Below are positions 3,513 to 62,779 of a DNA stretch of 63,227 nt, in pieces (within the stretch, counting starts at the first letter, position 1; the number at the start of each line of letters is the position of its first letter). Both the position numbers and the translations under genes were made by a program. The notes below the pieces were generated by a model. It worked only from the letters and a program-made list of their open reading frames with translations, was not told the DNA's origin and did not search any database. The DNA is taken from positions 22,632 through 85,858 of the forward strand of contig DYNZ01000006.1 of NCBI GenBank assembly GCA_020720805.1, written 5' to 3'. This DNA comes from Leptospira biflexa. Its GTDB lineage: Bacteria; Spirochaetota; DYNZ01.

Positions 3513-3550
3513 CGCTAGTTACACAAAAGAGACCTCAAATTAGATGAATA

Positions 3551-3743
3551 CCAATAAGCATCGATGCTTCGATAAACTCAGCACAAGATTTGACCGGTTA
3601 GGCAATGCCATAACCGCGTCCTTATCGACCTTGGTATAAACGGTTGCAGGATACCCTGACAGCATGGCGTTGCCTTGCATCGGGTAATGCCAGGTCGTGG
3701 TAGTACCAACGTCCTTTTGGCACAAAGTCCATTGCAAACAGTA
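3551..3743. repeat. Interspersed repeat family A (long form, 193 bp), flanked by TA/TA
   Basis: Same element at 12094-12193 (deleted form), 15708-16264 (inverted, with F insertion), 49211-49336 (inverted, inside a D element) and variant copies at 25517-25789 and 63101-end. ORF 3540..3737 on it is spurious. Confidence 0.7.
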
Positions 3744-3807
3744 TATCTCTGTTATTATCGATGATTTTTGAAAAAAGATAAGACTATTTTCTTGTTAGAA
3801 AAAAGCG

Positions 3808-4446
3808 TTAGGAGGGTTCGGGCACATATTCTGCCATTTTCTTCATAATCGTACCTGCGCGCTCTGGATTCTCCTGCTGGATCAGATAGATAAGATAACT
3901 GGTAATGGACTGCTTGCCCTCATCTGCCGCCACATAATCCATCCGACGCAAAACATCAATGATAAGAAGATCGTTCCAGCTATTCATAATTTTTACCGCT
4001 CCTTCCGGAGGCATATTTCCGATCTTACCGGCCAGGTCGCTGATGTTTTTCTGATATGATGCGTATTGCTGTTTGTCGCTTTCAAACTTTTTTCGCTCTA
4101 AAACCAGACCCTTCTCAAGCTCGCCCAACTTTTCTTCCTTGCTTTTTAAGGTTTTATCGAGTTCCTTCAATTTGATCTGCTCCAGAGAAAAGGTCTCCTG
4201 ATCTTTAGACAGCTTCTCCTGCGCCTTGCGCAGCTCTTCCCATTTCAACAAAGATGGCTCATCATCTTTAGCGTCAATCGATCTCTGTACCGTGGTAGGC
4301 ATATACTTCTCTCTCTGCTCTTGTAGGTCGATCAATCCGATATAATCAAGCCAGAGAAAACCAGCACTGATTAGAAATATTATTACAATAAGAAGATACA
4401 ATACTCGAATCTTAATCGATCTCATTTTCCTGCCTCCTGCTGGCAA
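3808..4446 (-). CDS. Flagellar-operon membrane-anchored coiled-coil protein, MotE/YlxF/FlbB-like (212 aa)
   Basis: N-terminal TM helix and long coiled coil with an MgtE_N-like C-terminus. It occupies the ylxF/flbB slot between fliJ and fliK. Confidence 0.4.
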   Translation of the reverse strand: MPAGGRKMRSIKIRVLYLLIVIIFLISAGFLWLDYIGLIDLQEQREKYMPTTVQRSIDAKDDEPSLLKWEELRKAQEKLSKDQETFSLEQIKLKELDKTLKSKEEKLGELEKGLVLERKKFESDKQQYASYQKNISDLAGKIGNMPPEGAVKIMNSWNDLLIIDVLRRMDYVAADEGKQSITSYLIYLIQQENPERAGTIMKKMAEYVPEPS

Positions 4447-4466
4447 ACCTATCCAAGAAAAAAAAA

Positions 4467-4943
4467 TTACCGCTTCGTGTCAAAAAGGCTGCCCTTCTCC
4501 TCAAGACTCTCCCTATTGACAGTTTTCCCCTGTAAAAATTTTTGAATCAAAGGAAGCAACTCGCTTCCGCGTCCATTATCCTGCATACCTGGCACATTGA
4601 GTTTCTGCATCTGCTGCAAAAGACTCTGCTGAAAGGTATCCCGATTTTGTTCATAGAAATAGTTCTCTTTATCAGACTGGCCTAACACTGATTGCAAATC
4701 TGGACCGGCCTGCTCCTGGGGCTGCGTTATTGGGGCTCTGTTTTTGCCCTGTGATGCCGTGGTTGTACTGTTTTCAGCGACCCCGGTCAAAGCATCCGAG
4801 ACCTGGCGCAGCTCATCCAAGCGGTTAAAGATCTTGCCTATGCGCTGCTGGATCTCTTCCATGCGGCCAAATGCGGCTGATTTCACCACGGAGGTGCTCT
4901 CCTGAATCCTCATGCGAAGATTTTTTAAGTGAACTGCATCCAT
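4467..4943 (-). CDS. Hypothetical Q-rich protein in flagellar operon (158 aa), FlbA-like position
   Basis: Intact ORF tightly packed between fliJ and the MotE-like gene. No recognisable domain. Confidence 0.3.
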   Translation of the reverse strand: MDAVHLKNLRMRIQESTSVVKSAAFGRMEEIQQRIGKIFNRLDELRQVSDALTGVAENSTTTASQGKNRAPITQPQEQAGPDLQSVLGQSDKENYFYEQNRDTFQQSLLQQMQKLNVPGMQDNGRGSELLPLIQKFLQGKTVNRESLEEKGSLFDTKR

Positions 4944-12209: not shown

Positions 12210-14330
12210 TTGAGTAGGGAGAACTCTGGTTTTATGGATGTGAAGACAACGAACACAAAAAACACCTCTTTCCATATGAAACGAACTTTTCGCAATAAAA
12301 TTGTGCTGCCAATCGCCGCCACATTCCTATTCAGTTTTCTTGCCGCTTATGTGGCCATCTCAAAACTTAGCTTTGACGAGATCCTGCGCACAGCGGAAAA
12401 ATCCCTCCTCAATCAGGTTAGCAAAATCACATCCGAGATCAGCAAGCTCAGCGAAAGGGCGTTGCTGCTTACCCTGCCGATCTCCCAGATTACGGAGATT
12501 GAAAGGGCTTACTTGATTCCAGACGAGACTCGGGGTCGTAATGCCCTGCGTGCAGCGCTGATACCCCATTTTCAGGTTCTCCAAAAGCACTCCAATCTAT
12601 CCCATCTGCGCCTCCATTTTCACAAACCTCCTGCCCGCAGCTTTCTTCGCACCTGGATTGCCCCTGGCAACCCCGCGGAAGGGGGGGGATGATCTTTCCT
12701 CATTCCGTAGTACCCTGCTCTCTGTTTACCAAAACAGACAACCCCTGACAACGGTAGAGATTGGTTATAATGGTATGTTCTTCCGAGGGATAATGCCCAT
12801 CATTAAAGAAAACCGTTACCTTGGTTCTATGGAGATGTATTTTAAACCATCCGATCTTTTTTCGTTCGTTGAACAAGGCAGCCAACTCTCCATTTTTATT
12901 ACAAAAGAGTTTTCTGGCATTATCGATTCCGCTCGCTTTGCCAAGGACAATCTCCAAAAGCGCGGCTCCTATCTGCTTTTGGCAGGTACAGTAACCACTG
13001 CACCTGAATATCTCCAGGAAAAGCTGCTCGATAACGGCAGAGAAAAGATCTCCATACATAGAGAGGGGCATTATCTGGTAGCGACATTTCCCATTAAAAA
13101 CCACAAAAAAGAGACGGTCGCAATTTTCGCTCTATCCAAAAATATCGAATCCTCTCTGGCAGAAATCCGCAAGACAGAATGGACCTTGGCCGCGCTATTC
13201 CTGGTTTCGCTGGGTCTGGTTTTTGCCGTGATTTTTTTTGTCGTGCGCGTGGCATCAGGCCCTCTGCTCACGGCAAAAACAACTATACAGGAGATGGCCA
13301 AGGGAGAGGGAGATCTCCGCAAAAGACTGTAGGTCTCCTCCTCGGATGAGTTCGGCAAATTGGCCTACTGGTTAAATGCCTTTATCGAGGTTCTATCTGG
13401 AATCATCACGCAGATCAAGGAGTCCAGCCAACAGAGTTCTCATATCTCCAAACAGCTTGAGGCTCTTGCCGAAAAAGTTACCCAATCCTCACAAAACCAG
13501 GCCTCCTCATCCGAGGAGTCATCGGCCTCCATTGAAGAGATCACCTCCTCGATCGAAGAGGTATTGAACTCTTTATCCATGCAGACTCAAAATGCCCAGG
13601 GGAATAAAGAGGATGTGATGCATTTAAACGAAATGGGCAATGCCATCAATACAGCCATGAAGGAGCTACTGGCGCTGGTTCAGGACTCGTCGCAGCGGGC
13701 ATCAGTGGGAGGCGAGACAGTCATCGCGGTAACCCACACTCTATGGATGAGATGAAAAACCACGCCAGCCAGATTAGCCAGTTTGTGAACAGTATAACCG
13801 ATATCTCCGATCAGACCAACCTGCTCGCCCTGAATGCTGCCATTGAAGCTGCCCGCGCCGGCGACAGCGGCAAAGGCTTTGCCGTGGTTACTGATGAAAT
13901 CGGCAAACTTTCTGAAAAAACAGTTTTATCGGTGAAGGAGATTACCAAGCTTATAGAAAAAACCACTGATTCTGTCCAGGAAGCGTTTACCCGCTCCGAG
14001 ACCGCCGCCACGGAGATGATATCGATTATTACCTCCGTCGATAAAATGAAAACATTTATTGCAAACGTGGTCACATCTGTGGAAGAACAGACAAGAATGG
14101 CAAATTTGATTAGAGAGAGAGCCGCAAACGTTACACGCATGGCTGCCGACATTGAGCGCAGCATTCGCGAGCAAAAGCTCAGCATCGAAGAGGTCAACAG
14201 CGTTATGTCAGGACTGGCAACTGAGGCTCAAGATATTTCTCAGCAATCAGAACATATTCGCTCTATGATCGATCGCCTCAATGAGGTCAGCGCCAGCCTC
14301 CATTCTCTGGTAGGAAAGTTTCTCACCTAA
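12210..14330 (+). pseudogene. Methyl-accepting chemotaxis protein (Cache-type sensor, HAMP, MCP signalling domain) disrupted by 3 lesions
   Basis: Four ORF pieces. LHFHKPPARSFLRTW / GGDDLSSFR Cache motif split at a G8 tract (12681-12688; G7 would be in frame). In-frame TAG at 13330-13332 inside HAMP (GEGDLRKRL*VSSSDEFGKLAYWLNAF). 1-nt frameshift near 13741 inside the conserved signalling domain ([26 protein letters not shown]). Confidence 0.6.
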
Positions 14331-15502: not shown

Positions 15503-15707
15503 CTCGTTTCAGCGACAAATTAAAAAAAAACGCCTATTTCAGATTACGAATTATCGGCCAGACGGTCAAGATAAATATAATGTTAATAAACATTTATTTA
15601 TAAAATGCAATATTTTTTGTAAAAATATTTTCGCTTTTCATTAATTCTTAAAAACCGAAAGTAGTCTCATCCGGAAACTTACATAAAAACAGGAACCATG
15701 ACACCTA

Positions 15708-16264
15708 TACTGTTTGCAATGGACTTTGTGCCAAAAGGAGGTTGGCATACTATAAAGAAAGTGCTTTTCGCACTTTCTGGTGCTTCGACCTTGCTCAGCA
15801 CTAGCTTCGTTATCCTTGCTGCCGAATTTTCATTGAAATTTGGCATGTCCCCGCAAAACCTTTCCAAGGCTTTTGCGGGGACAGACATGGTTTCCCGGGG
15901 CGATGCCGCGCAGCGTGCGTATCGCTTCCGAATTATAAAATACAAAAAGGAAGCGATGCTGCGTATCGCTTCCGAATTATAAAATACAAAAAGGAAGCGA
16001 TGCCATGGGGAAAACCAATTTCTTTTCGGTATAATACCACGACCTGGCATTACCCGACGCAAGGCAACGCCATGCAGTCAGGGTATCCTGCAACTGTCAA
16101 TGCGATGTGCACGGATGCACGAGTGTCGCGGGTGACAGGAAGTCACAGGAGCGACCGACGTCCACGGATGGAAAAGAGCTGACACTAGGTCGATAAGAAC
16201 GCGGTTATGGCATTGCCCAACCGGTCACTTGTGCTGAGTTTATCGAAGCATCGATGCTTATTGG
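15708..16264. repeat. Composite repeat: family A copy (inverted, long form) carrying a ~290-bp family F insertion (approx 15746-16036) with hairpins and two tandem 43-bp stem-loop units (15918-15960, 15961-16003)
   Basis: Ends match the reverse complement of 3551-3743 with TA flanks. Internal perfect hairpins agaaagtgc/gcactttct (9 bp) and gtccccgcaaaa/ttttgcggggac (12 bp). ORFs 15679..16062, 15698..15982 and 16000..16182 are spurious. Confidence 0.7.
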
Positions 16265-16480
16265 TATATCTTCCCGAAAAGAGACAGCTCTTCCCCAAAG
16301 CTGCACCTTCATTTGGATTTTTTCAATTAAACTAAGATTCCAAATCGATGCCTACAGAAAACTGAATTCTTTTGAATAGAACTACCCACGCCGATTTTTC
16401 TTCGTTTACAAATTTGAGAACAGCAGACAAATCGTCCTAGGCGACAACATCAAGAAAGCTATACCAGGGTAAAGACAGAT

Positions 16481-16903
16481 ATGAACCAGGCAATTGAATG
16501 GAATGAAAAATATGAGACCAATATTGAGACAATAGACCAGCAGCACAAAAACCTGTTTCGAATCATCAACAACCTTTTTGACGCCGTCCGCAACCATAAA
16601 AACCGGTCTGAATTAACACCAATAGCCAGAGAGTTGCTTGAGTACACAGAATACCACTTTTCCTACGAAGAGAAGCACTTTCACCTTTTTTCTTTCAGCA
16701 AAACCGCTGAGCACGAGGTGGACCACCGGCTCTTTACTCAAAAGGTCAAAGAGTTCAGCGATGAGATCGCCCAGGATAAACTCTCCTCCGCAATGCCGAT
16801 GCTGGATTTTCTCATCAACTGGCTTGTTGACCATATAATACTCAAGGATAAACGGTATGTTCCGCTATTCTTGCAGAAAAAGCAGGAAATTGAAGCGAAG
16901 TAG
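16481..16903 (+). CDS. Bacteriohemerythrin (140 aa)
   Basis: WNEKYETNIETIDQQHKNLF...H...HF..EE..F...H...DHI hemerythrin HHE cation-binding pattern. Confidence 0.8.
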   Translation: MNQAIEWNEKYETNIETIDQQHKNLFRIINNLFDAVRNHKNRSELTPIARELLEYTEYHFSYEEKHFHLFSFSKTAEHEVDHRLFTQKVKEFSDEIAQDKLSSAMPMLDFLINWLVDHIILKDKRYVPLFLQKKQEIEAK

Positions 16904-16912
16904 CCCGGCGAA

Positions 16913-19900
16913 TTGGCTAATATGTCTGCCACGAAAGCAAAAGAAATCCTTTTCAGGATTTTCATCCTTACTTTTTCATCCCTTTTATTCGCAACAGCGC
17001 TCCAGGCTCAATCGGAGTGGGACAATCCAAAAACAGAGGGGAAAACTCTTTCCGCTCAACAGCGCTTAAACCTTCAGCAAAAGTTCCAGAGCTCCTACTT
17101 TTTCTCCCGCCAAGAGTTTTTCGGCCATGAACGCCACAAAAAAATTCCTATCCGCATCTGGCCTTTTTGGGAGAAGGAAGACCATGCCGGCTACTACAGC
17201 CATACAATTTTCTGGCCCCTTTACCAGTTCGAACAAAACAGGGCGTTACTGAACGAGGGATTGCCCAATGCCAAGTGGCAAATCCTGCTGCTCTGGAGCG
17301 GGAAACAGACGCCATTCTGGCGCTCCCTCAATCTCTTCCCGTTTTATTATTTCTGGAAGGAAAGTGCCCTTAGCGGAACTCAGTCACACGATCTCTTGCA
17401 AACAGAACAGCTATTGCTTCTCCCTTTTTATTACCAAAAAGAGAGGTTCAAATCCGCTCCCCAGGAGTTATACTGCGACGAAAGTGCTTCCAGCACCTTG
17501 CAAAGCAGATCTGATCTCCAAGGACAAAACCAAAATGCCGAATTTTTGCCATACCGACTACAAGATGTAGGAGGTGCAGCATTTGCCATGGATGGCAAAA
17601 ATGCTGCCTTGTCAAAACCGGCTCGACCCACTCCGTGTAAATCGGGCAACGAATCTCCTTTTGGTACAAGCCAGCGCAGCCGAATCAGTCACTACTGGAA
17701 TGTACTTTTCCTGGTTGAACGCGAGCGGGATTTCACGAATCATTCGTACAGCACCACTTTACTCTATCATCTGGTGCACTGGTCCTCGCATCCTCTGGGT
17801 CAAACCCATTACGCGCTCCCTTTTTACTATTACCAGCGCCAGCAATTATCTCAGGACGCAGGCCAACGCTTCCTCTGGATTCTGCCATGGATAACCTATA
17901 CCAACAGCTTTGACCAAAAACCCAACCATTCATGGGAATCCAACCATTTCAACCTGATGTTTCTCTACCAATTTTCCCACAGGCGGGAAAAAGATACGAC
18001 GACAGCGAAAAAGCACTCCCTCCTTTTTCATCTGCTCAGCTATGGTTTCCAGCAAAGCCCTACATCTTCCTATTGGAACCTAATGTTTTTGCCCTTGTTC
18101 TATTACAGCCAGGAGAGCGTAAAAAAATCTCCGTTAACCGAAAAGAACCACTCTCTCTTTCTATTTCCGCTGCTCTACAGCGAATACCAGAGCTTCGCCG
18201 ACGGCAAGCGTCCCGTCTGCTCTCCCTCTTACTTTAACCTTCTCTTCCTTTTAGAACATGAAAAATATTGTTATGTTAACAGAGATAGTAACAACGAAAA
18301 AAAAGAGTGGCACTACCTGTTCCGCCTTGGCTATGCAACTTCAAATCGTGATTCGGGCGAATATTATTTCTTGCCATTGTTTTATCATGAGTATAGTCGC
18401 TGGACCACAGGCCGCAGCAGCACTGCTACCTTTGTTTTCCCCTTTTACCTCAGCAATGAGGTCTCCTATGCAGGCGCTCCGGATCTCCAGGCCGCATCTG
18501 GCAAGCGCAGCGAATGGTTAGGGACTCTCTTTAGTAGGATCAGCCAGAACGGTGCAGCAGAATCAAAATATTTCTCTATTCTTCCTCTAATGCATAGATG
18601 GGTGTCACAGGGGGGCGATCATACCCGAAATGTTTTTTTTCCCATCCTGTGGCATCGCAGCCGCAACAGCGGAAACGATCTCGATCTAACTGTTTTCCCC
18701 TTTTTCTGGCTCTATCTGCACCCGCAAAGTAAATATATTAATATATTTCCGCTCTTTCATCTTTCCCAGCATAAAAGAGCCCTGCTCCAGGACTCCGAAT
18801 TGGTCGAAAGACGGGCATCCGCATTTTTTCTGCTCTGGTATCAATATCGCCGATCGATCATCAGGAAAGACAGCCAGGGAAGGCTGCGTGAAGATATCCA
18901 AAGCAAGCAGACGGATATTCTCTACCCCTTGATCTCGTTCCAGGACAACGACGACGAGCGCCACGTGCGTGTATTTCCGCTGTACTGGTTTACCTATTCC
19001 AAGGTAGATCAAAGCCGGTTGCATTTTATCCCTCCATTTTACATGGAGTACCAGGATCGCTCCGAGCGCTACCTCTCGCTTTTCCCTTTTTATGGCAGTT
19101 ACGAGCTGTACGGCCGAAAAAAAATGACATCACTGTTCGGCCCTCTCCACTTCCGAGAAGAGAACTACGAAGATCGGAAAGCGACGGTTTCTCTCTTTTG
19201 GCCGTTTATCTCCGTGACAAAAGAGTTTGAAAATATTGCAGCTCTGGGTCAAAACCCTCTGTCCGCGCCAATCAATCAGAAAAATATCTCTTTCTCGATA
19301 TTTCCGTTGGTATTCTGGAGAATCGAAAAAGATTGGCACAGGAAAATTATTTTTCCCATATACTGGTCTATCGGGGACGATAACCAGACTGCCTCCAACG
19401 CCAGCCAGTTTTATGGAATCCTTCCCCCTATCTATTGGAGCTACCAGGAGGGCAATTATAAGCTGCGCTCCTTTATCTTCCCTTTATGGATTGGCGTACG
19501 CGACTATCGTATCAATTCAGAAGAAAATATCTCCAATCACTACTTACTGTCCGGATTGGCGGCATTCAGAAATCGCACCAGAGGCAGGGAAAATACACTT
19601 CGTGAAAACTGGTTTTTTCCGATTTGGTACTATTATCACAAAAACCCTCCTGATGCAGCCACAGACAGCCAGGTTCAAGAAAGATCGTGGAATCTACTTC
19701 TACTAGTAGACTATAATAGCCAAATTGCAACCCAGAGGAGTACAAGCCACTCCAGATTGGAAAAAAATTTTTGGATCTATCCTCTGTTCTCTCATTATTC
19801 TCAAATGAATAAAAACCTCCATGAAAGTCGATGGAGATACCACTCTCGCGAACGCAGCATGTTGCTACCTGTGTACTATTGGCGCGATGTTCGCTCTATC

Positions 19901-21001
19901 CTGCCAAACTCCTATCATGAGGATAAAATCAGAATCTTTACGCCTGTTATCTGGTGGATGAATACTCTCCAGGAAACCGTCACCTGGAAAACCGTCCCGG
20001 ATCTTTTGGGAACTCCTGAAAAAACACCCCGTGAGGTAAATGCGCTCCAGAATGATTTTACTGTCCACTTATGGCCTCTCTTTTTTTATCGAAGCGAGCA
20101 GCAAAGCGATAAAGATTGTCGGGGGGCGGAGTGCCCTCTTGTGCGAAGATCCGATCTCCAGGAGTACGGCACCTTATGGCCCTTTATTCGACGCAAGACC
20201 TTTACCAGTTACGATACCAACCATTATAGCTCGGCAACCTGGGCGCTCTTTCCTATCAGCGGCTGGACCAATGAGTACAACTACGCAAATGTCCTGAATG
20301 GTAAATACACAAGAGAGTGGTATATTTTACGTCTAGTTATGCAGGGAGAGCACCTAATGTCCGAGGGCAATGCAGACCATAGAATGGATTGGCTCTACCC
20401 CTTTGGCAATTTGCGCTATAAAACAACAGGAACATCCAGAGAGTACTCCTTTGATCCATTATGGCCTCTTGTCCACTACAGCATCCGTCATAAATGGCAC
20501 CAGGAAGATCCTGAAGAGCTCTTAAAAAACAGCAATTACAGGCTCTACCTCCTTCCCCTAGTTTGGTCAGAACAGCTACATAGTGGAGAAGAGCTACTGG
20601 AAAGTACACATTGGCTCTTTCCCCTCTTTTACAAAGATTTTCAACGTGAAAGAAATGCATTGACCATAATCTCGCTTCCTTGGCAATATTTTGCCAATGC
20701 TACGGAGAAGGAGTGGTTTTTCCTAGGGCCAGTCATGATGTATGAAGAAAGCATTGACAAACCTGGAAAAGAAAATGTCAGCGATCTCCGCTTCTTGTGG
20801 TCGGTGTTCCGTTATTACCATAAATGGACGCCAGGTAGCCGCGATATTTACTCTAACCACCTGTTTTTAATCTACAATTACGAACGGGAAAAATCAGAAA
20901 AACTGGATTACACCTATTTTTCTCTGCTAAAATTTGTTTACATCTACGAGAGGGAACAGGATAAAACAACCAACCGACTATTCTACTTTATCAAATGGTG
21001 A
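16913..21001 (+). CDS. Giant secreted aromatic-repeat protein (1362 aa), unknown function
   Basis: Signal peptide (…FATALQA-QSEW). Dozens of ~25-30-aa repeats with core ΦΦ(F/L/Y)P(L/F/I)(F/Y/W)(Y/W), e.g. LFPFYYFW, FLPLFYYS, FFPIWYYY, LFPLFYKDF. Very rich in W/F/Y/H. Confidence 0.8.
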   Translation: MANMSATKAKEILFRIFILTFSSLLFATALQAQSEWDNPKTEGKTLSAQQRLNLQQKFQSSYFFSRQEFFGHERHKKIPIRIWPFWEKEDHAGYYSHTIFWPLYQFEQNRALLNEGLPNAKWQILLLWSGKQTPFWRSLNLFPFYYFWKESALSGTQSHDLLQTEQLLLLPFYYQKERFKSAPQELYCDESASSTLQSRSDLQGQNQNAEFLPYRLQDVGGAAFAMDGKNAALSKPARPTPCKSGNESPFGTSQRSRISHYWNVLFLVERERDFTNHSYSTTLLYHLVHWSSHPLGQTHYALPFYYYQRQQLSQDAGQRFLWILPWITYTNSFDQKPNHSWESNHFNLMFLYQFSHRREKDTTTAKKHSLLFHLLSYGFQQSPTSSYWNLMFLPLFYYSQESVKKSPLTEKNHSLFLFPLLYSEYQSFADGKRPVCSPSYFNLLFLLEHEKYCYVNRDSNNEKKEWHYLFRLGYATSNRDSGEYYFLPLFYHEYSRWTTGRSSTATFVFPFYLSNEVSYAGAPDLQAASGKRSEWLGTLFSRISQNGAAESKYFSILPLMHRWVSQGGDHTRNVFFPILWHRSRNSGNDLDLTVFPFFWLYLHPQSKYINIFPLFHLSQHKRALLQDSELVERRASAFFLLWYQYRRSIIRKDSQGRLREDIQSKQTDILYPLISFQDNDDERHVRVFPLYWFTYSKVDQSRLHFIPPFYMEYQDRSERYLSLFPFYGSYELYGRKKMTSLFGPLHFREENYEDRKATVSLFWPFISVTKEFENIAALGQNPLSAPINQKNISFSIFPLVFWRIEKDWHRKIIFPIYWSIGDDNQTASNASQFYGILPPIYWSYQEGNYKLRSFIFPLWIGVRDYRINSEENISNHYLLSGLAAFRNRTRGRENTLRENWFFPIWYYYHKNPPDAATDSQVQERSWNLLLLVDYNSQIATQRSTSHSRLEKNFWIYPLFSHYSQMNKNLHESRWRYHSRERSMLLPVYYWRDVRSILPNSYHEDKIRIFTPVIWWMNTLQETVTWKTVPDLLGTPEKTPREVNALQNDFTVHLWPLFFYRSEQQSDKDCRGAECPLVRRSDLQEYGTLWPFIRRKTFTSYDTNHYSSATWALFPISGWTNEYNYANVLNGKYTREWYILRLVMQGEHLMSEGNADHRMDWLYPFGNLRYKTTGTSREYSFDPLWPLVHYSIRHKWHQEDPEELLKNSNYRLYLLPLVWSEQLHSGEELLESTHWLFPLFYKDFQRERNALTIISLPWQYFANATEKEWFFLGPVMMYEESIDKPGKENVSDLRFLWSVFRYYHKWTPGSRDIYSNHLFLIYNYEREKSEKLDYTYFSLLKFVYIYEREQDKTTNRLFYFIKW

Positions 21002-21006
21002 TACCT

Positions 21007-21525
21007 ATGGAACAAATGCCCTTTTCCCTGGTTGGAATCGCACCAGAATGGATCGCCGTAATCCTATTTTTCTTGGTTCTGGTTTTCATCGCTTTTTTTT
21101 ACCGAAAAGGAACCCTTGATAAACTTGAAGGACTGAAGGGCGAATCCATCTTGGCAGAGGAAGAGCCAGTACGTGTTGAACAAACAGGAGGACCGCGAAC
21201 TACAATCTTTCCCCGCTGTAAAATACGCCTTACCACGCATCGCCTGATTATAGCGCAAAAAGTTCCTCTCCGCAAACATCTATATGTGCTCCGGGCAGTA
21301 ATTTTGCTTTACCAGGGGGAAAACAGAACAGAACTGGGAAGTACGCTGCGATCAGGTTATCTTCAATTAGCCTTGAGGCCAAAGGAGTTAACAATCCAGG
21401 AGATCGCTTCGTCCCTAAAAGTAAACATTGCCATACCATCGTCAGCGCTCACCATTCAGGCAGGACTCTCCTTTTCCCTGCAAACTGAAGAGGCAACCAA
21501 GGCATTTCGGAACCTTATCGCGTAA
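21007..21525 (+). CDS. Small N-terminally membrane-anchored protein, possibly bacterial PH (bPH)-like (ORF open from 20995)
   Basis: One TM helix (IAVILFFLVLVFIAFF) followed by a ~140-aa soluble domain. Starts 6 nt after the giant gene stop. Confidence 0.3.
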   Translation: MEQMPFSLVGIAPEWIAVILFFLVLVFIAFFYRKGTLDKLEGLKGESILAEEEPVRVEQTGGPRTTIFPRCKIRLTTHRLIIAQKVPLRKHLYVLRAVILLYQGENRTELGSTLRSGYLQLALRPKELTIQEIASSLKVNIAIPSSALTIQAGLSFSLQTEEATKAFRNLIA

Positions 21526-21542
21526 CGAATGGTCTTAAATAT

Positions 21543-22253
21543 TTGTGGAAAATGGTTTACTCTTACAGCAGACACGAGAGATCATTGCTGACACAATTGT
21601 TTTTGTTAAGGAGCGTTATGAAAACTGCAATAAGTCCCGTTTTACCTTATCTACTCTCCAGCTTGACTATCCTTATCTCCTGTCAAAATACCCTGCCCTC
21701 ATGGGTAACGCTGGGTGAAGCACCGGCAAGGGTAGCTATTCTCAGGCCTGATGACGTCATCAAAAAAATGAAAATCCGCAAAGGAGAGATCATAGCAGAT
21801 ATTGGTGCAGGTAGCGGTCTCTTCTCCCGCCCTCTGGCGCTGGCAACGGGAGCAACTGGCAAAGTTTACGCATACGATATCAACAAAGATTTAGTTGATT
21901 TTATGAACCGTGATGCCGCTGCCAGAAAAATTGACAACATGGTAGCAGTAAGCATTGACGCAACAAACCCCAACTTCCAGGGGAATCGATTTGATACTGT
22001 GTTTCTTGCAGATACCTATCACCATATAGATAACAGAAGCGATTATTTCCAGAAACTGCGAGCTCATATAACACCGCAAGGTAGGGTTGTAATTCTTGAT
22101 TTTCACAAACAGCAAGCCCCGTTCGGTCCTCCCCTAAGCCATAAACTGGAAAAAAAAGTTGTAATTGAAGAGATGAAAAAGGCAGGATATCAACTTGCGC
22201 TAAGCGATGATTTTATCCAGTATCACTACTACCTTGAATTTCGATTAAAATAA
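21543..22253 (+). CDS. Class I SAM-dependent methyltransferase (probable start MKTAIS at 21618, with signal/lipoprotein-like N-terminus)
   Basis: Motif I IADIGAGSGLFS and an acidic motif II VYAYDIN. Confidence 0.6.
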   Translation: MWKMVYSYSRHERSLLTQLFLLRSVMKTAISPVLPYLLSSLTILISCQNTLPSWVTLGEAPARVAILRPDDVIKKMKIRKGEIIADIGAGSGLFSRPLALATGATGKVYAYDINKDLVDFMNRDAAARKIDNMVAVSIDATNPNFQGNRFDTVFLADTYHHIDNRSDYFQKLRAHITPQGRVVILDFHKQQAPFGPPLSHKLEKKVVIEEMKKAGYQLALSDDFIQYHYYLEFRLK

Positions 22254-23435
22254 TTTTTTAACAACCGGGTCGCTGTCGCGAAGGATACGACGTAACCTGC
22301 CGCGATACCCTTCGGATGCATTCACAAAAAATCCGCCAACGACATAGCCACCGTCATCCACATTCTCCTGCACCCAGGTCACTTTGACGGTAAAGAGAAA
22401 GGGCTCCTTAACTTGTTCCGCAATAACCGATAACGTAACGACATCATTAAGCTCCAGCTTTTCTGCGGCAACAAAGCTGATACCATTAATAGAGATATCA
22501 CGACTTTGCGAGGGCTTCTCCTCTCCCTGCCGCTTGTAACGGACATCCCAGGAGACCGGCATCCGGATCTCCCTGCGCTTATCCTCTGATTGGGAAATAA
22601 TCATATTTTTGCCAGACTTCTTGGCGATATACAGATTTTTATCGGCGCGCTCTAACAGCTCAACAGTATCCAGAGCGTCCTCAGGAAAGCTGGCCACACC
22701 TCCGCTCAGGGACAAGCGGGTCTTTTCCAGGTGCAGTCCATGGAACTCTTCCCGGATTTTATTTGCAGCAGAACAGGCCTTGCCGCTGGTTGCATCTGGC
22801 AATATGAGAAGGAACTCCTCCTCGCCAATGCGGCAGATGGTATCCTCGCTGCGAATATTATCCAAAAAAACATCTGCCAGACTTTTTAGCACCTGATCGC
22901 CACGCGGATGTCCATAGGTGTCATTTAAAAACTTAAAATTATCAATATCAAAGAGAATGATGGCAAAAGGTCTGCGGTAGCGGCGAGATATCTTCCACTC
23001 TCGCTCCAGGCGATCATTGCAGTATCGTCGGTTAAATAGGCCTGTCAGCTCGTCTACCAGCATCAGGTTTTCCTTATCCTGATAAACGGAAAACTCTATA
23101 ATCTTGGGATTGCTGAGTTGCGGATTCATGTTTGTTAGATAATCAAACATAGCAACCCGAAAGCCCGGATTCCGACCGAGAGCCTCCGTCATCGCGTTCT
23201 GATGCTCTATAGTCTCAAAAAAAATATCTTCGGCACGCTCTTCTGCCAGGTCAAGCCCTGCCAGCAGATGAAACAACTGTGAAAAAACCTGCTTTCCAAA
23301 ACGCTGGCTTAGATCCTGAAAGCAGATCCAAGAGTTTTGATGAGCGTCGCAATGCACATCCAATAGTCGAAGAATTTCTCTTTCTACCTCAGGCTTCTGA
23401 AGCTGGACATTCTCATGAATATACATATACGCCAC
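22245..23435 (-). CDS. Degenerate GGDEF (GEEEF) domain fused to C-terminal PilZ domain; N-terminal ~120 aa unknown (396 aa)
   Basis: GGDEF-fold signatures DELTGLFNRRY and FAIILFDIDNFKFLNDTYGHPRGD, but the active-site motif reads RIGEEEF (second Gly replaced). PilZ motifs RREIR and DISINGISF. Confidence 0.7.
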   Translation of the reverse strand: MAYMYIHENVQLQKPEVEREILRLLDVHCDAHQNSWICFQDLSQRFGKQVFSQLFHLLAGLDLAEERAEDIFFETIEHQNAMTEALGRNPGFRVAMFDYLTNMNPQLSNPKIIEFSVYQDKENLMLVDELTGLFNRRYCNDRLEREWKISRRYRRPFAIILFDIDNFKFLNDTYGHPRGDQVLKSLADVFLDNIRSEDTICRIGEEEFLLILPDATSGKACSAANKIREEFHGLHLEKTRLSLSGGVASFPEDALDTVELLERADKNLYIAKKSGKNMIISQSEDKRREIRMPVSWDVRYKRQGEEKPSQSRDISINGISFVAAEKLELNDVVTLSVIAEQVKEPFLFTVKVTWVQENVDDGGYVVGGFFVNASEGYRGRLRRILRDSDPVVKKLF

Positions 23436-23555
23436 ATCTTATTTCTAAACTGCTTCATCGGCAGTTCGTATGGAATTTATATTTACTTACAACCTATGAC
23501 GTATATTTAGGAAAATTTTTAGTAAAAAATGCACAAAAAGCAATTTTTTTTAAAT

Positions 23556-23891
23556 TTAGATTGAAAGTACCTTCATATCACTTTGCAGCCACTCGGATAA
23601 GGGTTTTCCTAAGTAGCGAACCGTAATACCAAGAGATTTGAATAGATCCGATACTCCATAGGAGTCTGCACAAGCCTTACATGCCTCGACAATGACACCG
23701 CTTGTGATCATGGCCTTGATCTGTTCCTGAAGATCGCTATTTTCACTAAGCAGGCGGGCAGACGCACCCCAGATTACCAGCCGGATTTCATCCCACCACT
23801 GGTACTTTTGTGCATTTGTCGTGTACATAAATACCATTTTCTGAGCAACCTCCTGGTCGCCGCTGGTCCATAATACCACCAGATGATTCAT
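23556..23891 (-). CDS. DsrE/DsrF/TusD-like small protein (111 aa)
   Basis: Size, fold-like pattern and conserved Cys (EACKACADSYG) resemble the DsrE family. Confidence 0.4.
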   Translation of the reverse strand: MNHLVVLWTSGDQEVAQKMVFMYTTNAQKYQWWDEIRLVIWGASARLLSENSDLQEQIKAMITSGVIVEACKACADSYGVSDLFKSLGITVRYLGKPLSEWLQSDMKVLSI

Positions 23892-24114
23892 TGTAGCCTC
23901 CTATGCAACGGTATACCTCTGCATCCTTATGAAAGGTTGAATCTCAATTATCCAATCTTTTTTTGAAAAAATTAGAAAAACCATTGCGATACAGCACCAA
24001 ATTCTGATTTGGAAATTTTTTCCATGTTTCATTTTTTCATTTGCCAAATAATGATCTTTTGTCGAACTTGTTTCTAAAGAATGGTTAAATTTATTGAGGT
24101 TCCACTAAGGCGCA

Positions 24115-24730
24115 TGAAGAAACAAGGGATGCCAGAAAAATTCTGATTGTTGACGATGACCCTGCCTCCCAACTAATGCTGGAACGTGCCCTGCAATCGC
24201 AGGGATGGAAGGTTACCATAGCCGGAAATGGCCAACAGGCTCTCCAAATTCTCAATGACCAAAAAAATGAATTTTTTCTTCTCATCATTGATATCAAAAT
24301 GCCTGTCATGAATGGCCTGGATTTCCTGCAGCAGGCTCATAAAAAATATCCTATTCTTGAATTTTTAATCCTGACTGCGGATGCCTCCGTTGATACGGTG
24401 CAGGAGGCTTTTAAGTATGGAGCCACAAAATTCTATACCAAACCCCTCTCGAATAGCGAACTGGAGTTTATCACACGCAAAGCAAACCAACTCTATTCCA
24501 TACGCGAACAGAGCCTACTCTTTTTACAGCGCTACACCCAAAAGGAGATACAGGATCTCGCAATCAAGGAAAACCAGCTACTGACAGAGGTACTTACCCA
24601 GGAGTTTATCAAGTTAGAAAACCAATATACCGAGCTTCTGCAATTTGTGCGGAAAAACCAATCCAAACTGGAGGTGCCTCCGGCTATTCGAGTTCTATTG
24701 GATAATGGCACAGACTACCAGGAGCTCTAA
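24115..24730 (+). CDS. CheY-like receiver domain protein with ~75-aa coiled-coil C-terminal extension; start region frameshifted at an A5 tract (ORF track start 24176)
   Basis: The receiver begins RKILIVDDDP upstream of the first in-frame ATG. ATG at 24115 (MKKQGMPEK) is in the -1 frame and would join with A6 instead of A5 at 24135-24139. Phospho-acceptor LLIIDIKMP and conserved FYTKP present. Confidence 0.6.
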
Positions 24731-24735
24731 AGCGT

Positions 24736-25332
24736 CTATGCCGGTAGAATGAGTTCACTCCAGGCTGATCGATTCCCCAATTGCTCCTGCAATAGTGAAT
24801 AGTAAAAAAAGGCGTTCAAGACCAACGAGTGATGAATCTCTCCCCGACGTATCATATCAGGAATCTCCCGCAGAGGAACCAGAAGAGTACGGATATCTTC
24901 ATTTTCATCGAGATTTAGCTTTCCCGTAGCCTGAACAGGGTACTGTAGAAATGAGTGACAGCGGTTATTATGGGTGGCCGGATTAGGCTGAACCATACCA
25001 AGGGGAATAGCTCGCCCCCCCTCATATCCAGTCTCCTCCAATAGCTCCCGTTGCGCCGCAGTTAAAGGATCTTCGCCAGGCTCTGACAGCCCACCCGGAA
25101 TCTCAAGAGTGAAAGCACGCTCACCCATCCGAAATTGCTGGATCAACACAACATCGAAATCTTTTGTGACAGGGATGATATTGACCCATTCAGGATTCTC
25201 TAAAATAAAAAAGTTATGTGTCTTATTGCGTCCTTTCAGGGTTGCCCTGATCCGCACAACATCAAAAATACGGCATGAGAATACGCTCTCTTCATCTTCA
25301 ATGAGCCATGGTTCCAATTTTTCCGGTTGCAA
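24736..25332 (-). CDS. NUDIX hydrolase (198 aa)
   Basis: Nudix box GGLSEPGEDPLTAAQRELLEETGYEG. Confidence 0.8.
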   Translation of the reverse strand: MQPEKLEPWLIEDEESVFSCRIFDVVRIRATLKGRNKTHNFFILENPEWVNIIPVTKDFDVVLIQQFRMGERAFTLEIPGGLSEPGEDPLTAAQRELLEETGYEGGRAIPLGMVQPNPATHNNRCHSFLQYPVQATGKLNLDENEDIRTLLVPLREIPDMIRRGEIHHSLVLNAFFYYSLLQEQLGNRSAWSELILPA

Positions 25333-25516
25333 TGGGGATTCCTTTCCTGCAGATCATAACAGTATGTGAAAACAACTCCATACATGTCTGTCAAACGAGA
25401 TGATGACCATACTCCTGACAATCCAGAATCCCTTCAAAAATGCCTACTGTTTTTTTATCCCACCCCAAAAAAGTAGCTTGAAAGAGTGAATCCATTCTGA
25501 AGAAACTCCTACTAGA

Positions 25517-25789
25517 CTGATAAGAATCGATGCTTCGATATACTCGAAACACTTTGGTTCTCGGGTTTTATACTGGCTAAAGGGTGCGTCGACATCGCTG
25601 GCATTGCCTTGCGATATCCGAAAACCAAAATGCCTTTAGTATAAACTTGGATGGTGAGCCTGCGATGCATCGAGCTTGTCGAGAAGTCGAACTACAGCAT
25701 AAGATTTACTTCGATAGACTCAGTACAAGTGAACGGTTGGGCAATGCCATAATCGCGTCCTTTTGGTACAAAGTTCATGGCAGACGGTA
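25517..25789. repeat. Family A repeat (subfamily 2) with a nested family D MITE insertion at 25541-25642 (TA duplicated)
   Basis: The A left end ...atcgatgcttcgaTA is interrupted by tactcgaaac...cctttagta, then TAaac... continues. Same D element at 47903-48003, 62780-62880 and split at 49141-49377. ORF 25584..25805 is spurious. Confidence 0.7.
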
Positions 25790-47829: not shown

Positions 47830-47902
47830 AGTTGAAGTGATCTTTCTTGCATAGCGCGTGGTAAAATTTTAAGAGGTAAATAAAATTCAAAAAGCCATCT
47901 TA

Positions 47903-48003
47903 TACTAAAGGCATTTTGGTTTTCGGATATCGCAAGGCAATGCCAGCGATGTCGACGCACCCTTTAGCCAGAATAAAACCCGAGAACCAAAGTGTTTCGA
48001 GTA
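47903..48003. repeat. Family D MITE (101 bp, inverted orientation), TA-flanked
   Basis: Reverse complement of 62780-62880. Imperfect terminal inverted repeats tactcgaaacactttggttctcgg / tactaaaggcattttggttttcgg. ORF 47900..48088 is spurious. Confidence 0.7.
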
Positions 48004-48316
48004 TATTTTGCACCCATTGGTAACACACGAAAGGGAACCAGGCTCTTGAAAACAGGATAACGATCCAAAAACTTCTTCTATTTGTCAATACTATTCATAT
48101 TTGAGATATCGAAAAACCCATCTCAAGATTCTTCCCGTGAAAAACGGTTTGGAAAATCTCCTCTGCTAGAATTTTCTCAAGGAAAAGGAGGAGATAGTTG
48201 GGTAATTCCGAGTTTGTAAGCAGGAATAGCATTATCCTTTTTCAATTATAACTTGAGGAAGGCAAGGTTTTCATCATTCTTATTGATAGGTTTAAGAGTT
48301 CCAAAGAGTTTTTATC

Positions 48317-48553: not shown

Positions 48554-48609
48554 TACCACCGGTAATCAAGATCAATCCAGCAAAACTGTGGCGCAGACTA
48601 AAAAATATC

Positions 48610-48987: not shown

Positions 48988-49010
48988 CGTTTTTATCCTT
49001 GCGAGGTTCT

Positions 49011-49067: not shown

Positions 49068-49140
49068 CATCTGCCAGCCGCTCCCGGACAAATGCGACAT
49101 AATGCAGTGTCTTTCGCTGCCTTTCCCTCCCGGACGGGAT

Positions 49141-62777: not shown

Positions 62778-62779
62778 TA

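What the first reader, a model, noticed from the sequence alone, without database searches (positions are those of the whole stretch)
16913..21001. 1362-aa secreted protein built from dozens of aromatic 'ΦΦ-F/L-P-L/F-F/Y-Y/W' repeats
The protein has a cleavable signal peptide. Essentially its whole length is then a degenerate ~25-30-aa repeat. The invariant core is a Pro flanked by aromatics (LFPFYYFW, FLPLFYYS, VFPFYLSN, FFPIWYYY, LWPLFFYR, LFPLFYKDF...), usually preceded by an 'x-LL-x…W/H' half-repeat. Trp/Phe/Tyr/His content is extreme. I cannot match it to a known repeat family (not WD40, Kelch, YD, PQQ, FG-GAP or WG). The periodicity suggests a very large beta-solenoid, beta-propeller series or a giant beta-barrel surface protein. 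Its size, novelty and placement directly after a hemerythrin make it the most unusual gene in the window.
Basis: seen in the sequence. Interest (0 to 1): 0.75.

Follow-up and report, generated by a model that had tools for sequence, protein, structure and literature searches.

The report
Giant aromatic-proline beta-hairpin envelope protein
This is a real exported protein of about 1,360 residues, built from some 45 short beta-hairpins in which every second turn is an aromatic-Pro-aromatic motif; it belongs to an uncharacterised family with no solved structure, and because small members of that family sit in Mla/MCE lipid-transporter operons it probably acts at the outer membrane, though its function is untested.

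Summary
ORF 16913-21001 (+) is real; ATG 16922 is the likelier start. The 1359-aa product is 100% identical in three assemblies, and the DNA has no repeats that could have collapsed. A hydrophobic-Pro-hydrophobic motif occurs 29-34 times, against 3.7±1.8 in shuffles.

The structural unit is an ~18-aa beta-hairpin, not a 25-30-aa repeat. AlphaFold2 gives 85 strands (median 7 residues). Every Pro motif lies in a turn, and these turns alternate with polar turns. The result is a long antiparallel meander with one aromatic edge and one polar edge.

The protein itself has no Pfam, NCBIfam or PDB match, but it is not an orphan:
- It has 112 distant relatives among 1.84 billion cluster representatives.
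- These include the function-unknown Leptospira 'LA_1737 family'.
- It is colinear with a ~490-aa family (hhalign 97.5%).

One small member models at pLDDT 94 and has no global PDB fold match. Its gene sits directly upstream of mlaE-(mlaF)-mlaD in four phyla.

Giant forms, including this one, are stand-alone: 1 of 57 loci is next to mla genes. The hemerythrin neighbour is not conserved.

Best reading: a Sec-exported, outer-membrane-associated hairpin palisade that binds the membrane interface or lipid. The function is inferred, not shown.

The parts
16913..21001 (+). Giant repeat-protein gene (1362 aa from TTG 16913; more likely 1359 aa from ATG 16922; stop 20999-21001)
   Evidence: ORF list. 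The identical 1359-aa product is called on three assemblies. There are no DNA-level repeats.
16922..17008 (+). N-terminal Sec-type signal peptide (aa 4-32; K-rich n-region, hydrophobic core aa 12-30, ATA/LQA cleavage motifs, no lipobox Cys)
   Evidence: It is the only strongly hydrophobic 19-residue window in the protein. The sequence was read. Assigned by inspection; no dedicated predictor was run.
17069..17365 (+). Conserved N-terminal module (aa 53-151) with the first hairpins (IRIWPFWEKE, TIFWPLYQFE, LNLFPFYYFW)
   Evidence: phmmer: aa 53-151 matches the N-termini of P0086 (iE 5e-19) and P0087 (iE 1e-22). Repeat HMM hits at aa 82, 97 and 138.
17450..17686 (+). Q/S/G-rich non-repeat insert (aa ~180-258), predicted disordered
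   Evidence: pLDDT is about 29-36 and there is no secondary structure in the AF2 model. No motif copies fall between aa 175 and 297.
17150..20998 (+). Beta-hairpin repeat tract (aa 80-1362): about 90 short antiparallel strands, with hydrophobic x-P-x turns alternating with polar turns
   Evidence: 33 motif copies. 85 strands in aa 163-1362, and none of the 32 hydrophobic-P-hydrophobic motifs lies inside a strand: 31 are in non-helical turns and 1 in a helical turn. Turn types alternate. A hydrophobic block of ±4 residues surrounds each Pro.
18893..19501 (+). Conserved core (aa 661-863, includes ...VFPLYWF...FIPPFYMEY...LFPFYGSYELYGR...), the best-conserved and best-modelled part
   Evidence: hhalign against the small-family profile A4: 97.5%, E 8e-12. 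This is the region matched in most of the 112 relatives. pLDDT is 84-90 for aa ~690-770.
20759..20998 (+). Conserved C-terminal cap module (aa 1283-1362: DLRFLWSVFRYY...HLFLIYNYERE...YFSLLKFVYIYERE...NRLFYFIKW-COOH)
   Evidence: It aligns end-to-end with the C-termini of P0086, P0087 and P0108. It also aligns with the last ~70 profile positions of the small family.
16481..16903 (+). Hemerythrin gene 18 nt upstream of the ATG, probably co-transcribed; the association is not conserved in the family
   Evidence: Pfam PF01814. Intergenic sequence. No terminator-like site between the two genes. Absent beside the other giant homologues.
20995..21525 (+). 176-aa single-pass membrane protein whose start overlaps or abuts the stop of the giant gene; no Pfam family; possible operon partner specific to this organism
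   Evidence: ORF list. No Pfam hit.

Best explanation
The gene encodes a Sec-exported cell-envelope protein that folds into one very long antiparallel beta-meander of about 45 hairpins and 90 strands.

**Anatomy.** In each ~18-residue hairpin, one turn is a hydrophobic/aromatic x-Pro-x motif with about four hydrophobic residues on either side. The other turn is polar or charged. All aromatic-Pro turns therefore line up along one edge of the sheet, and all polar turns along the other. The sheet is amphipathic edge-to-edge, not face-to-face.

**Inferred mechanism.** The aromatic-Pro edge is about 4 residues deep, roughly 12-15 Å, comparable to one membrane leaflet. It dips into a membrane interface or grips lipid. 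The polar half stands in the periplasm as a single-layer sheet. The most likely site is the periplasmic side of the outer membrane.

**Evolutionary link.** The protein is an expanded, stand-alone relative of a ~490-aa family of exported proteins and lipoproteins. That family is the first gene of mlaE-mlaF-mlaD (MCE 'needle') phospholipid-transporter operons in several diderm phyla. The small form probably provides the outer-membrane docking or lipid-handling end for those transporters.

**What is shown and what is inferred.**
- Shown: the gene is real; the repeat and its statistics; homology to the two families; the Mla linkage of the small family.
- Predicted by AlphaFold2, not experimentally shown: the all-beta hairpin architecture.
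- Inferred: localisation, membrane or lipid binding by the aromatic edge, and any role of this giant form in lipid or envelope homeostasis.
For: **Gene reality.**

**Motif statistics.**

**AlphaFold2 model of aa 163-1362.**
- 85 strands, 51% strand content, almost no helix.
- None of the 32 hydrophobic-P-hydrophobic motifs lies inside a strand; all are in inter-strand turns.
- Hydrophobic and polar turns alternate.

**Hydrophobicity around each Pro.**
- Hydrophobic fraction is 0.91/0.85 at ±2, about 0.6 at ±3, about 0.55 at ±4 and about 0.2 beyond ±5.
- About 50% of residues beyond ±5 are charged or amide.
- The same profile is seen in giant and small relatives.

**Homology.**
- 13 hits by single-sequence search and 81 by profile search.
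- 112 representatives in 1.84 billion.
- hhalign against the small-family profile: 97.5%, E 8e-12.
- Colinear hmmsearch domains run to the last residue.
- N- and C-terminal modules are shared with other giant members (P0086, P0087), and the C-terminal cap also with the small family.

**Small family.**
- The AF2 model has pLDDT 93.9 and pTM 0.84, with 46 six-residue strands and the same turn alternation.
- 31% of members have a lipobox-like motif.
- The gene lies immediately upstream, on the same strand, of MlaE-(MlaF)-MlaD in Geoalkalibacter (4-nt overlap), Planctomycetota, Kiritimatiellia and NC10.
- The same arrangement holds in 79 of 80 Desulfuromonadales loci; the 80th is cut off.

**Literature.** Long MlaD proteins of the PVC and FCB groups lack the outer-membrane barrel found in Veillonella, and 'as yet unidentified proteins' were suggested (PMC10665443).

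**Distribution.** All named bacterial sources of family members are diderm phyla.
Against: - The window has no MlaE, MlaF or MlaD homologue anywhere in its 63 kb.
- Giant forms are almost never next to mla genes: 0 of 51 Bacteroidota-type loci, 0 of 5 other loci, and one exception, L007. The functional link rests on distant homology to the small family.
- The 1200-aa model has low global confidence (pLDDT 56, pTM 0.37), so its overall shape is unknown.
- I had no access to model coordinates. The 'edge' geometry is deduced from secondary structure plus sequence, not measured in 3D.
- Aromatic hairpin repeats also bind choline, sugars or cell wall in other families.
- No localisation or lipid-binding data exist for any member, and no paper was found on LA_1737.
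Confidence: 0.4

Rival explanations
1. It is an integral outer-membrane beta-barrel protein, either one giant barrel or several barrels. It would be inserted by BAM through a C-terminal beta-signal and act as a pore or export channel.
For: - It has a signal peptide, is all-beta and has no other transmembrane helix.
- The C-terminus ...L-F-Y-F-I-K-W has an aromatic last residue and hydrophobic residues at positions -3, -5 and -7. The same ending is seen in P0086, P0108 and many others.
- A cluster of 10-14-residue strands lies at aa 919-1064.
- There are partial structural matches to LptD, BamA, TonB-dependent receptors and porins.
Against: - Median strand length is 7 residues (6 in the confident small model), and only 16 of 85 strands reach 9 residues. 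That is too short to span an outer membrane.
- Hydrophobicity forms a contiguous ±4-residue block around each Pro with no in/out alternation.
- The aromatic C-terminal residue is not a family trait: 27% of giant members against 19% expected from composition, and 6% of small members.
- About a third of small relatives are lipoproteins.
- No outer-membrane-protein Pfam family matches.
- Matches to barrels have TM-scores ≤0.15 or cover at most a third of the model.
Confidence: 0.2
2. It is a secreted or surface-exposed ligand-binding beta-hairpin repeat protein, such as an adhesin or a cell-wall or glycan binder. It would be analogous to choline-binding/CW_binding repeats or MORN repeats, with the aromatic residues forming binding sites.
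For: - It has extreme aromatic content and ~18-20-aa hairpin periodicity, as in choline-binding repeats.
- The gene stands alone, like many surface proteins.
Against: - No sequence match to CW_binding, MORN, YD or other repeat models.
- No T9SS, T1SS or autotransporter signal in the window protein.
- Small relatives are periplasm-side lipoproteins encoded in mla operons, which points inward, not outward.
- The aromatic residues are flanked by Leu, Ile and Phe rather than by the polar residues typical of sugar-binding sites.
Confidence: 0.15
3. It is an AsmA/TamB-like (repeating beta-groove) bridge. It would be anchored in the inner membrane by its N-terminal hydrophobic segment, span the periplasm and conduct lipids along a hydrophobic groove.
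For: - It is a giant all-beta protein whose single N-terminal hydrophobic segment could be an uncleaved anchor.
- The top Foldseek hits of the 1200-aa model are the lipid-wrapping beta-belt of ApoB100 (E 2e-8).
- One giant homologue follows mlaE-mlaF.
Against: - No AsmA, AsmA_2 or TamB/DUF490 Pfam match.
- TM-scores to ApoB100 are ≤0.15.
- Strands are short and lack the alternating pattern needed for a hydrophobic concave face.
- Small relatives have cleavable or lipoprotein signals.
- The mla adjacency of giant forms is 1 in 57.
Confidence: 0.1

Closest known systems
NCBIfam NF047486 'LA_1737_Cterm' / LA_1737 family protein (Leptospira, function unknown)
   Same: - Giant exported proteins (1500-2240 aa) full of the same hydrophobic-Pro-aromatic hairpins.
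- P0010, which matches NF047486 at 152 bits, is a direct hit of the window protein.
- They share the conserved core (window aa 662-765 against P0010 aa 858-960, iE 7e-16).
- They share a similar C-terminal cap and a similar N-terminal 'W-D-x-L...Y-G-S-E-K' start.
   Different: - The window protein does not match the NF047486 model, even at E ≤ 10.
- It ends ...FYFIKW rather than ...R(V/I)LGI(K/R)L.
- The family is only a locus-tag name. It has no Pfam entry, no structure, and I found no paper on it.
Unnamed ~450-520-aa exported-protein/lipoprotein family encoded upstream of mlaE-mlaF-mlaD (alignment A4; e.g. Geoalkalibacter halelectricus P0211)
   Same: - It has the same hairpin unit, the same hydrophobic/polar turn alternation, the same conserved core and the same C-terminal cap.
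- hhalign gives 97.5% and the HMM match is colinear.
   Different: - It is one third the size (46 strands).
- It is tightly operon-linked to an MCE transporter. The window gene has no mla gene within 63 kb.
- About 31% of its members are lipoproteins; the window protein has no lipobox.
Outer-membrane partners of MCE transporters (PqiC octameric toroid, MlaA)
   Same: This is a functional analogy only. They are outer-membrane-side proteins that receive the periplasm-spanning MCE component (PMC10897342 abstract). The small relatives occupy an operon position consistent with such a role.
   Different: - There is no sequence similarity: no Pfam MlaA or PqiC-type hit.
- The architecture is completely different. 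This is a single-chain beta-hairpin meander, whereas PqiC is a small alpha/beta lipoprotein ring and MlaA is a helical protein.
Single-layer beta-hairpin repeat folds: CPAP/SAS-4 TCP (G-box) domain, MORN repeats, OspA central sheet
   Different: - They cover only 100-170 of 503 residues, at 3-8 Å rmsd.
- There is no sequence relationship.
- None has an aromatic-Pro turn edge, and none approaches 46-90 strands.
Beta-flower fold / Tubby clan (PF21784-PF21786; Durairaj et al. 2023, PMC10584680)
   Same: It is built from short antiparallel hairpin 'petals' with aromatic residues at strand edges. Some members are bacterial lipoproteins thought to sit at membranes or bind lipid.
   Different: - Beta-flowers have 8-12 strands (~100 aa), a [DNEQ]xxG hairpin motif and often a central helix.
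- The window protein and its relatives match none of these Pfam models, and they have 46-90 strands.
Large outer-membrane barrels and lipid-handling beta proteins (LptD, BamA, TamB/AsmA, ApoB100 beta-belt)
   Same: They are all-beta antiparallel meanders, envelope- or lipid-associated, and they give weak structural hits.
   Different: - TM-scores are ≤0.18.
- Strand length and hydrophobic pattern differ.
- There are no family-model hits.

Membership tests
LA_1737 family (NCBIfam NF047486, C-terminal domain model) | Match to the 158-position C-terminal HMM at or above the curated cut-off of 60 bits | tested here: not met
   There is no NCBIfam hit for the window protein, even at E ≤ 10. P0042, P0045 and P0032 score 229-235 bits, P0010 scores 152 and P0012 scores 31.
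LA_1737 family (NCBIfam NF047486, C-terminal domain model) | Detectable homology to proteins that do pass the model | tested here: met
   P0010, P0007 and P0008 are direct hits of the window protein (E 4e-7 to 5e-8 against 5.8 billion sequences). The core aligns with iE 7e-16.
Hydrophobic-Pro-aromatic hairpin superfamily (unnamed; small Mla-operon family A4 plus giant forms) | Profile-level sequence similarity that is colinear over the core and C-terminal cap | tested here: met
   hhalign 97.5%, E 8e-12. Four colinear hmmsearch domains (3-6 of six reported) reach the last residue. phmmer hits to small members occur in the 1.84-billion search, for example P0122 at E 3e-9.
Hydrophobic-Pro-aromatic hairpin superfamily (unnamed; small Mla-operon family A4 plus giant forms) | Hairpin meander with alternating hydrophobic x-P-x turns and polar turns | tested here: met
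   Shown by the AF2 secondary structure and turn analysis for the window protein and for P0211. The hydrophobic profiles are the same.
Small Mla-operon family (A4) specifically | Gene immediately upstream of mlaE-(mlaF)-mlaD on the same strand; size about 450-520 aa | tested here: not met
   No MlaE, MlaF or MlaD homologue exists in the 63-kb window, and the protein is 1359-1362 aa. The small family shows the linkage in 83 of 84 loci.
Integral outer-membrane beta-barrel proteins | Membrane-spanning strands (≥9-10 residues) with alternating lipid-facing hydrophobic residues | tested here: not met
   Median strand length is 7 residues and 16 of 85 strands reach 9. The hydrophobic block around each Pro is contiguous, not alternating. 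Caveat: the model has low global confidence.
Integral outer-membrane beta-barrel proteins | C-terminal beta-signal ending in an aromatic residue | tested here: inconclusive
   The window protein ends L-F-Y-F-I-K-W, which fits the pattern. Across the family, aromatic ends are barely enriched: 27% against 19% expected in giant forms, and 6% in small forms.
Integral outer-membrane beta-barrel proteins | Match to a known outer-membrane-protein sequence family or fold | tested here: not met
   No Pfam or NCBIfam hit. Structural matches to LptD, BamA or porins have TM ≤0.15 or cover at most a third of the model.
AsmA/TamB-like repeating beta-groove lipid bridges | AsmA, AsmA_2 or TamB (DUF490) domain match; continuous hydrophobic groove | tested here: not met
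   No Pfam hit at E ≤ 10. The sequence pattern does not give a hydrophobic face. Groove geometry itself could not be inspected because I had no coordinates.
Described repeat families (WD40, Kelch, PQQ, FG-GAP, YD/RHS, MORN, CW_binding, WG, beta-flower PF21784-6) | Match to the Pfam repeat model | tested here: not met
   The window protein has no Pfam family at E ≤ 10. Seven relatives have none at E ≤ 1, apart from one chance-level DUF hit.
MCE-system outer-membrane lipoproteins (MlaA, PqiC-like) | Sequence or fold match to MlaA (PF04333) or the PqiC/ABC-type transport auxiliary lipoprotein family | tested here: not met
   No Pfam hit for the window protein or its small relatives. PDB fold searches of the small model return no MlaA or PqiC.

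The most novel reading that the evidence does not exclude
These proteins define an unrecognised class of diderm envelope protein. It would be a single-chain 'palisade' of beta-hairpins that embeds one aromatic-proline edge in a single membrane leaflet, possibly closing into a wide shallow ring.

- The ~490-aa form would be the missing outer-membrane partner of barrel-less MlaD/MCE needle transporters in PVC bacteria, Desulfuromonadota and NC10.
- The giant stand-alone forms would be expanded versions that organise or shuttle outer-membrane lipid independently of an adjacent transporter. These include this window's protein, the Leptospira LA_1737 family, the Bacteroidota proteins and even horizontally acquired dictyostelid copies.
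Probability: 0.25. Interest if true: 0.8.

Novelty: new variant of a known kind. Interest (0 to 1): 0.6.

Why it matters
How phospholipids reach and leave the outer membrane is still open. In many phyla the MlaEFD/MCE system has a long periplasmic MlaD but no known outer-membrane partner: no MlaA, and no C-terminal barrel (PMC10665443).

The family that this giant protein belongs to has these properties:
- It has no Pfam entry.
- A member modelled at pLDDT 94 has no global match among solved structures.
- Its small members are operon-locked to exactly those transporters.

If the aromatic-proline edge is a leaflet-inserting device, it would be a new way for a beta protein to sit in a membrane. 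It would also be a candidate for the missing outer-membrane end of MCE transport.

The giant forms occur in Leptospira, where the family is named but uncharacterised, and in Bacteroidota, so they are accessible to genetics.

If the family turns out to be a ligand-binding surface repeat instead, the finding is a new hairpin-repeat family of moderate interest.

Tried and rejected
1. Direct annotation gave nothing: Pfam, NCBIfam and PDB sequence searches of the window protein.
Cluster look-ups of five of ten window proteins returned no names; the other five sequences were not in the collection. Alignments A1 and A4 were too divergent for locus scans.
3. The afdb50 fold library was unavailable.
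4. The assembly-artefact or collapsed-repeat idea is rejected. There are no DNA repeats, the protein is identical in three assemblies, and a 32%-identical homologue has the same length.
5. Hemerythrin as a functional partner is rejected as a family trait. The only other hemerythrins lie ~1.5-2 kb upstream of five closely related Desulfuromonadales small-family loci.
6. The downstream 176-aa membrane protein as a conserved partner: no homologue lies next to any other member I hold.
7. A general Mla linkage of giant forms is rejected: 0 of 51 loci. The L007 case is an exception. No neighbour family recurs beyond one syntenic group.
8. The C-terminal beta-signal as a family feature is not supported statistically.
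9. Beta-flower fold membership is rejected on size, motif and absence of Pfam hits.
10. The literature on LA_1737 returned only unrelated hits. The MCE literature I read does not mention this family.
11. Rfam found no RNA family in the window.
12. The global shape of either model could not be inspected because coordinates are not exposed. Fold searches gave only partial, low-TM matches.

Full report
**1. The observation**

ORF 16913..21001 (+) is present as described. It runs 1362 aa from the TTG. Gene callers on three assemblies start at the ATG at 16922, giving 1359 aa. Those assemblies are NCBI MAG GCA_974334805.1, JGI metagenome 3300000234 and Logan SRR1560848, and all encode a 100% identical protein.

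The DNA has no tandem repeats and no direct repeats longer than 21 nt. The repeat therefore exists only at the protein level, and a collapsed-repeat artefact is excluded.

- Composition is extreme in aromatics: W 3.5x, Y 2.4x, F 1.9x and H 1.55x typical values.
- A hydrophobic-P-hydrophobic-aromatic pattern occurs 29 times, against 3.7±1.8 (maximum 10) in 2000 shuffles.
- A repeat HMM finds 33 copies from aa 82 to aa 1240.
- The only strongly hydrophobic 19-residue segment is aa 12-30. It follows Lys residues and precedes A-T-A / L-Q-A, which fits a Sec type-I signal peptide without a lipobox (by inspection).

**2. Anatomy**

Where the repeat is regular (aa 572-617, 684-730, 794-859), motifs are 16-20 residues apart.

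An AlphaFold2 model was built for aa 163-1362 from a 50-sequence alignment.

- Global confidence is low (pLDDT 56, pTM 0.37), but the model is uniformly beta. It has 85 strands with a median of 7 residues, and only 16 strands reach 9 residues.
- None of the 32 hydrophobic-P-hydrophobic motifs in the modelled part lies in a strand. All are in turns between strands.
- These hydrophobic turns alternate with polar turns such as NDD, DRS, GE and QD along the chain.

Around each Pro the hydrophobic fraction is 0.9 at ±2, about 0.6 at ±3 and ±4, and about 0.2 beyond ±5. Beyond ±5, about half the residues are charged or amide.

The unit is therefore an ~18-aa hairpin with a hydrophobic, aromatic tip about four residues deep and a polar base. 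Stacked as a meander, the hairpins give a sheet with one aromatic edge and one polar edge. They do not give a sheet with one hydrophobic face.

A Q/S-rich insert at aa ~180-258 is predicted to be disordered.

**3. Relatives**

The protein itself has no Pfam, NCBIfam or PDB sequence match. It is not an orphan.

- A single-sequence search found 13 large proteins at ~22% identity.
- A profile search found 81.
- An exhaustive phmmer search found 112 cluster representatives among 1.84 billion, four of them below E 1e-30. The nearest is P0086: 1359 aa, 32% identity, the same ...YFIKW end.

Named members come from Leptospira, Nitrospirota, Proteobacteria and Planctomycetota. Many unnamed ones, such as P0004, lie in Bacteroidota-like gene contexts with T9SS-type neighbours.

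The Leptospira proteins carry NCBI's name 'LA_1737 family protein'. This comes from the NCBIfam model NF047486, which covers only the C-terminal 158 residues.

- The window protein fails that model.
- It shares the conserved core with model-positive proteins (aa 662-765, iE 7e-16 to P0010). It also shares an N-terminal module and a C-terminal cap with P0086, P0087 and P0108.
- I found no paper on LA_1737.

**4. A small sister family with a confident, unmatched fold**

The profile search also recovered proteins of 446-550 aa, many with lipoboxes. A search with their alignment found at least 411 members at E ≤ 1e-8. They occur in Desulfuromonadales, Planctomycetota, Verrucomicrobiota/Kiritimatiellia and NC10, and none has a Pfam domain.

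- hhalign of this family against the window protein gives 97.5% probability and E 8e-12, over family columns 90-298 and window aa 661-863.
- hmmsearch places successive parts of the 500-position profile colinearly along the window protein, right to its last residue.

The giant protein therefore looks like an expanded version of the small one.

AlphaFold2 models the Geoalkalibacter halelectricus member P0211 (503 aa, 138-sequence alignment) at pLDDT 93.9 and pTM 0.84.

- The model has 46 strands of about 6 residues in an unbroken meander.
- Odd-numbered turns are WPL, FPF or LWPF, and even-numbered turns are GS, DG or EN.
- Foldseek gives TM-scores of at most 0.18.
- The 1200-aa window model likewise gives only generic meander hits with TM ≤ 0.15: the ApoB100 beta-belt, EMC1 and LptD.

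**5. Genomic context**

The small-family gene lies immediately upstream, on the same strand, of MlaE, an ABC ATPase and a 314-362-aa MlaD with helical-needle signatures. This holds in four lineages:

- Geoalkalibacter, with a 4-nt overlap
- a Planctomycetota MAG
- a Kiritimatiellia MAG
- an NC10 MAG

The same arrangement holds in 79 of 80 Desulfuromonadales/Geobacteraceae genomes. The 80th locus is cut off.

Grasekamp et al. 2023 (PMC10665443) report three relevant points. Long MlaD forms a trans-envelope bridge. Its outer-membrane barrel is absent in the PVC and FCB groups and in most long MlaDs. Unidentified proteins may be involved. The small family is therefore a candidate outer-membrane-side partner.

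For giant forms the picture differs.

- One Bacteroidota homologue follows mlaE-mlaF (L007).
- None of 51 further Bacteroidota-type loci has an MlaE or MlaD neighbour. Neither do five other loci.
- No neighbour family recurs beyond one syntenic group.
- The window has no Mla homologue in 63 kb.

In the window the gene sits 18 nt after a hemerythrin gene, with no terminator-like site between them. It overlaps or abuts a 176-aa membrane-protein gene. Neither neighbour is found beside the other giant homologues. The only other hemerythrins lie 1.5-2 kb upstream of five closely related Desulfuromonadales small-family loci.

**6. Interpretation**

These points are secure:

- It is a real, conserved, Sec-exported protein.
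- It belongs to a sparse superfamily that is confined, where bacterial sources are named, to diderm phyla.

AlphaFold2 predicts that the protein is made of ~18-aa hairpins with an aromatic-Pro turn edge.

These points are inferred:

- The aromatic edge, roughly one leaflet deep, binds a membrane interface or lipid.
- The protein resides at the periplasmic side of the outer membrane.
- Like its small relatives, it acts in envelope lipid handling.

The rivals are a true transmembrane barrel, a ligand-binding surface repeat and an AsmA-like bridge. Strand length, the edge-type hydrophobic pattern, lipoprotein relatives and the weak generality of the C-terminal aromatic end all argue against a classical barrel. 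The low confidence of the giant model leaves room for it.

**7. Novelty**

- The family is catalogued only under a locus-tag name.
- It has no Pfam entry, no solved structure and, as far as I could find, no literature.
- The confident small-family model has no global match in the PDB.
- The closest comparators are single-layer hairpin-repeat sheets (TCP, MORN, OspA). Conceptually, the small beta-flower lipoproteins are also close (PMC10584680), but the family does not belong with them.

I rate it a new variant of a known kind (beta-hairpin repeat proteins). It would become a new class of membrane-associated protein if the leaflet-inserting palisade and the MCE partnership are confirmed.

Noticed in passing
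Loci L011 (6001-7512), L012, L093, L094 and L013-L092; not in the window: A ~490-aa family with no Pfam entry, of exported proteins and lipoproteins, is always the gene immediately upstream of mlaE-(mlaF)-mlaD(long, helical needle). This holds in Desulfuromonadota, Planctomycetota, Kiritimatiellia and NC10, often with a TPR protein in front. It is made of 23 hydrophobic-Pro hairpins and models at pLDDT 94 with no PDB fold match. It is a candidate for the missing outer-membrane partner of barrel-less MlaD.
   Followed up: partly
window 25520-25643 (-), 47900-48006 (+), 62777-62884 (-), partial copy 49141-49212 (+); second element at about 16187-16270, 3548-3631 and 49255-49339: Two dispersed intergenic repeat elements of ~105 nt and ~85 nt. 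Copies are near-identical and partly palindromic, resembling MITE or REP elements. No Rfam family matches.
   Followed up: partly
window 15706-25666 against L001 8785-18745: Only this ~10-kb block is shared (99.86% identity) with the NCBI MAG contig. It holds the hemerythrin, the giant gene, the 176-aa membrane protein, a methyltransferase, GGDEF-PilZ, DsrE-like, response-regulator and NUDIX genes. Upstream of it that contig carries FeoB, MFS and TPR-Mrr genes instead of the window's Sulf_transp and MCP genes. The upstream synteny break lies a few hundred bases from a copy of the ~85-nt repeat; on the other side the MAG contig simply ends within the ~105-nt repeat. This points to strain rearrangement or an assembly join at repeats.
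   Followed up: partly
window 12210-14330 (+): A methyl-accepting chemotaxis protein appears split into three ORFs: 12210-12692, 12658-13332 (dCache_3) and 13743-14330 (MCPsignal). This may be a frameshifted or decaying gene, or sequencing errors.
   Followed up: no
window ~48000-56000: G+C drops to 34-40%, against 43-52% elsewhere. The region is flanked by copies of the dispersed repeat and may be a horizontally acquired island.
   Followed up: no
Proteins P0053, P0056, P0057, P0059 (Tieghemostelium, Dictyostelium): Dictyostelid amoebae encode 1380-1650-aa homologues with the same hairpin motif, conserved core and C-terminal cap. They have no signal peptide and end in a Cys-rich ...CC(I/V)EC. 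This is probably a bacterial-to-eukaryote transfer, with a lipid-anchor-like end.
   Followed up: no
window 20995-21525 (+): This 176-aa protein has one N-terminal transmembrane helix and no Pfam family. Its start codon overlaps the stop of the giant gene, suggesting translational coupling. No homologue lies next to other family members.
   Followed up: partly
L034, L047, L050, L051, L064 (positions about 3700-4570): Hemerythrin genes also lie 1.5-2 kb upstream of the small-family/mla operon in five closely related Desulfuromonadales MAG loci. This is too few and too closely related to count as an independent association.
   Followed up: no
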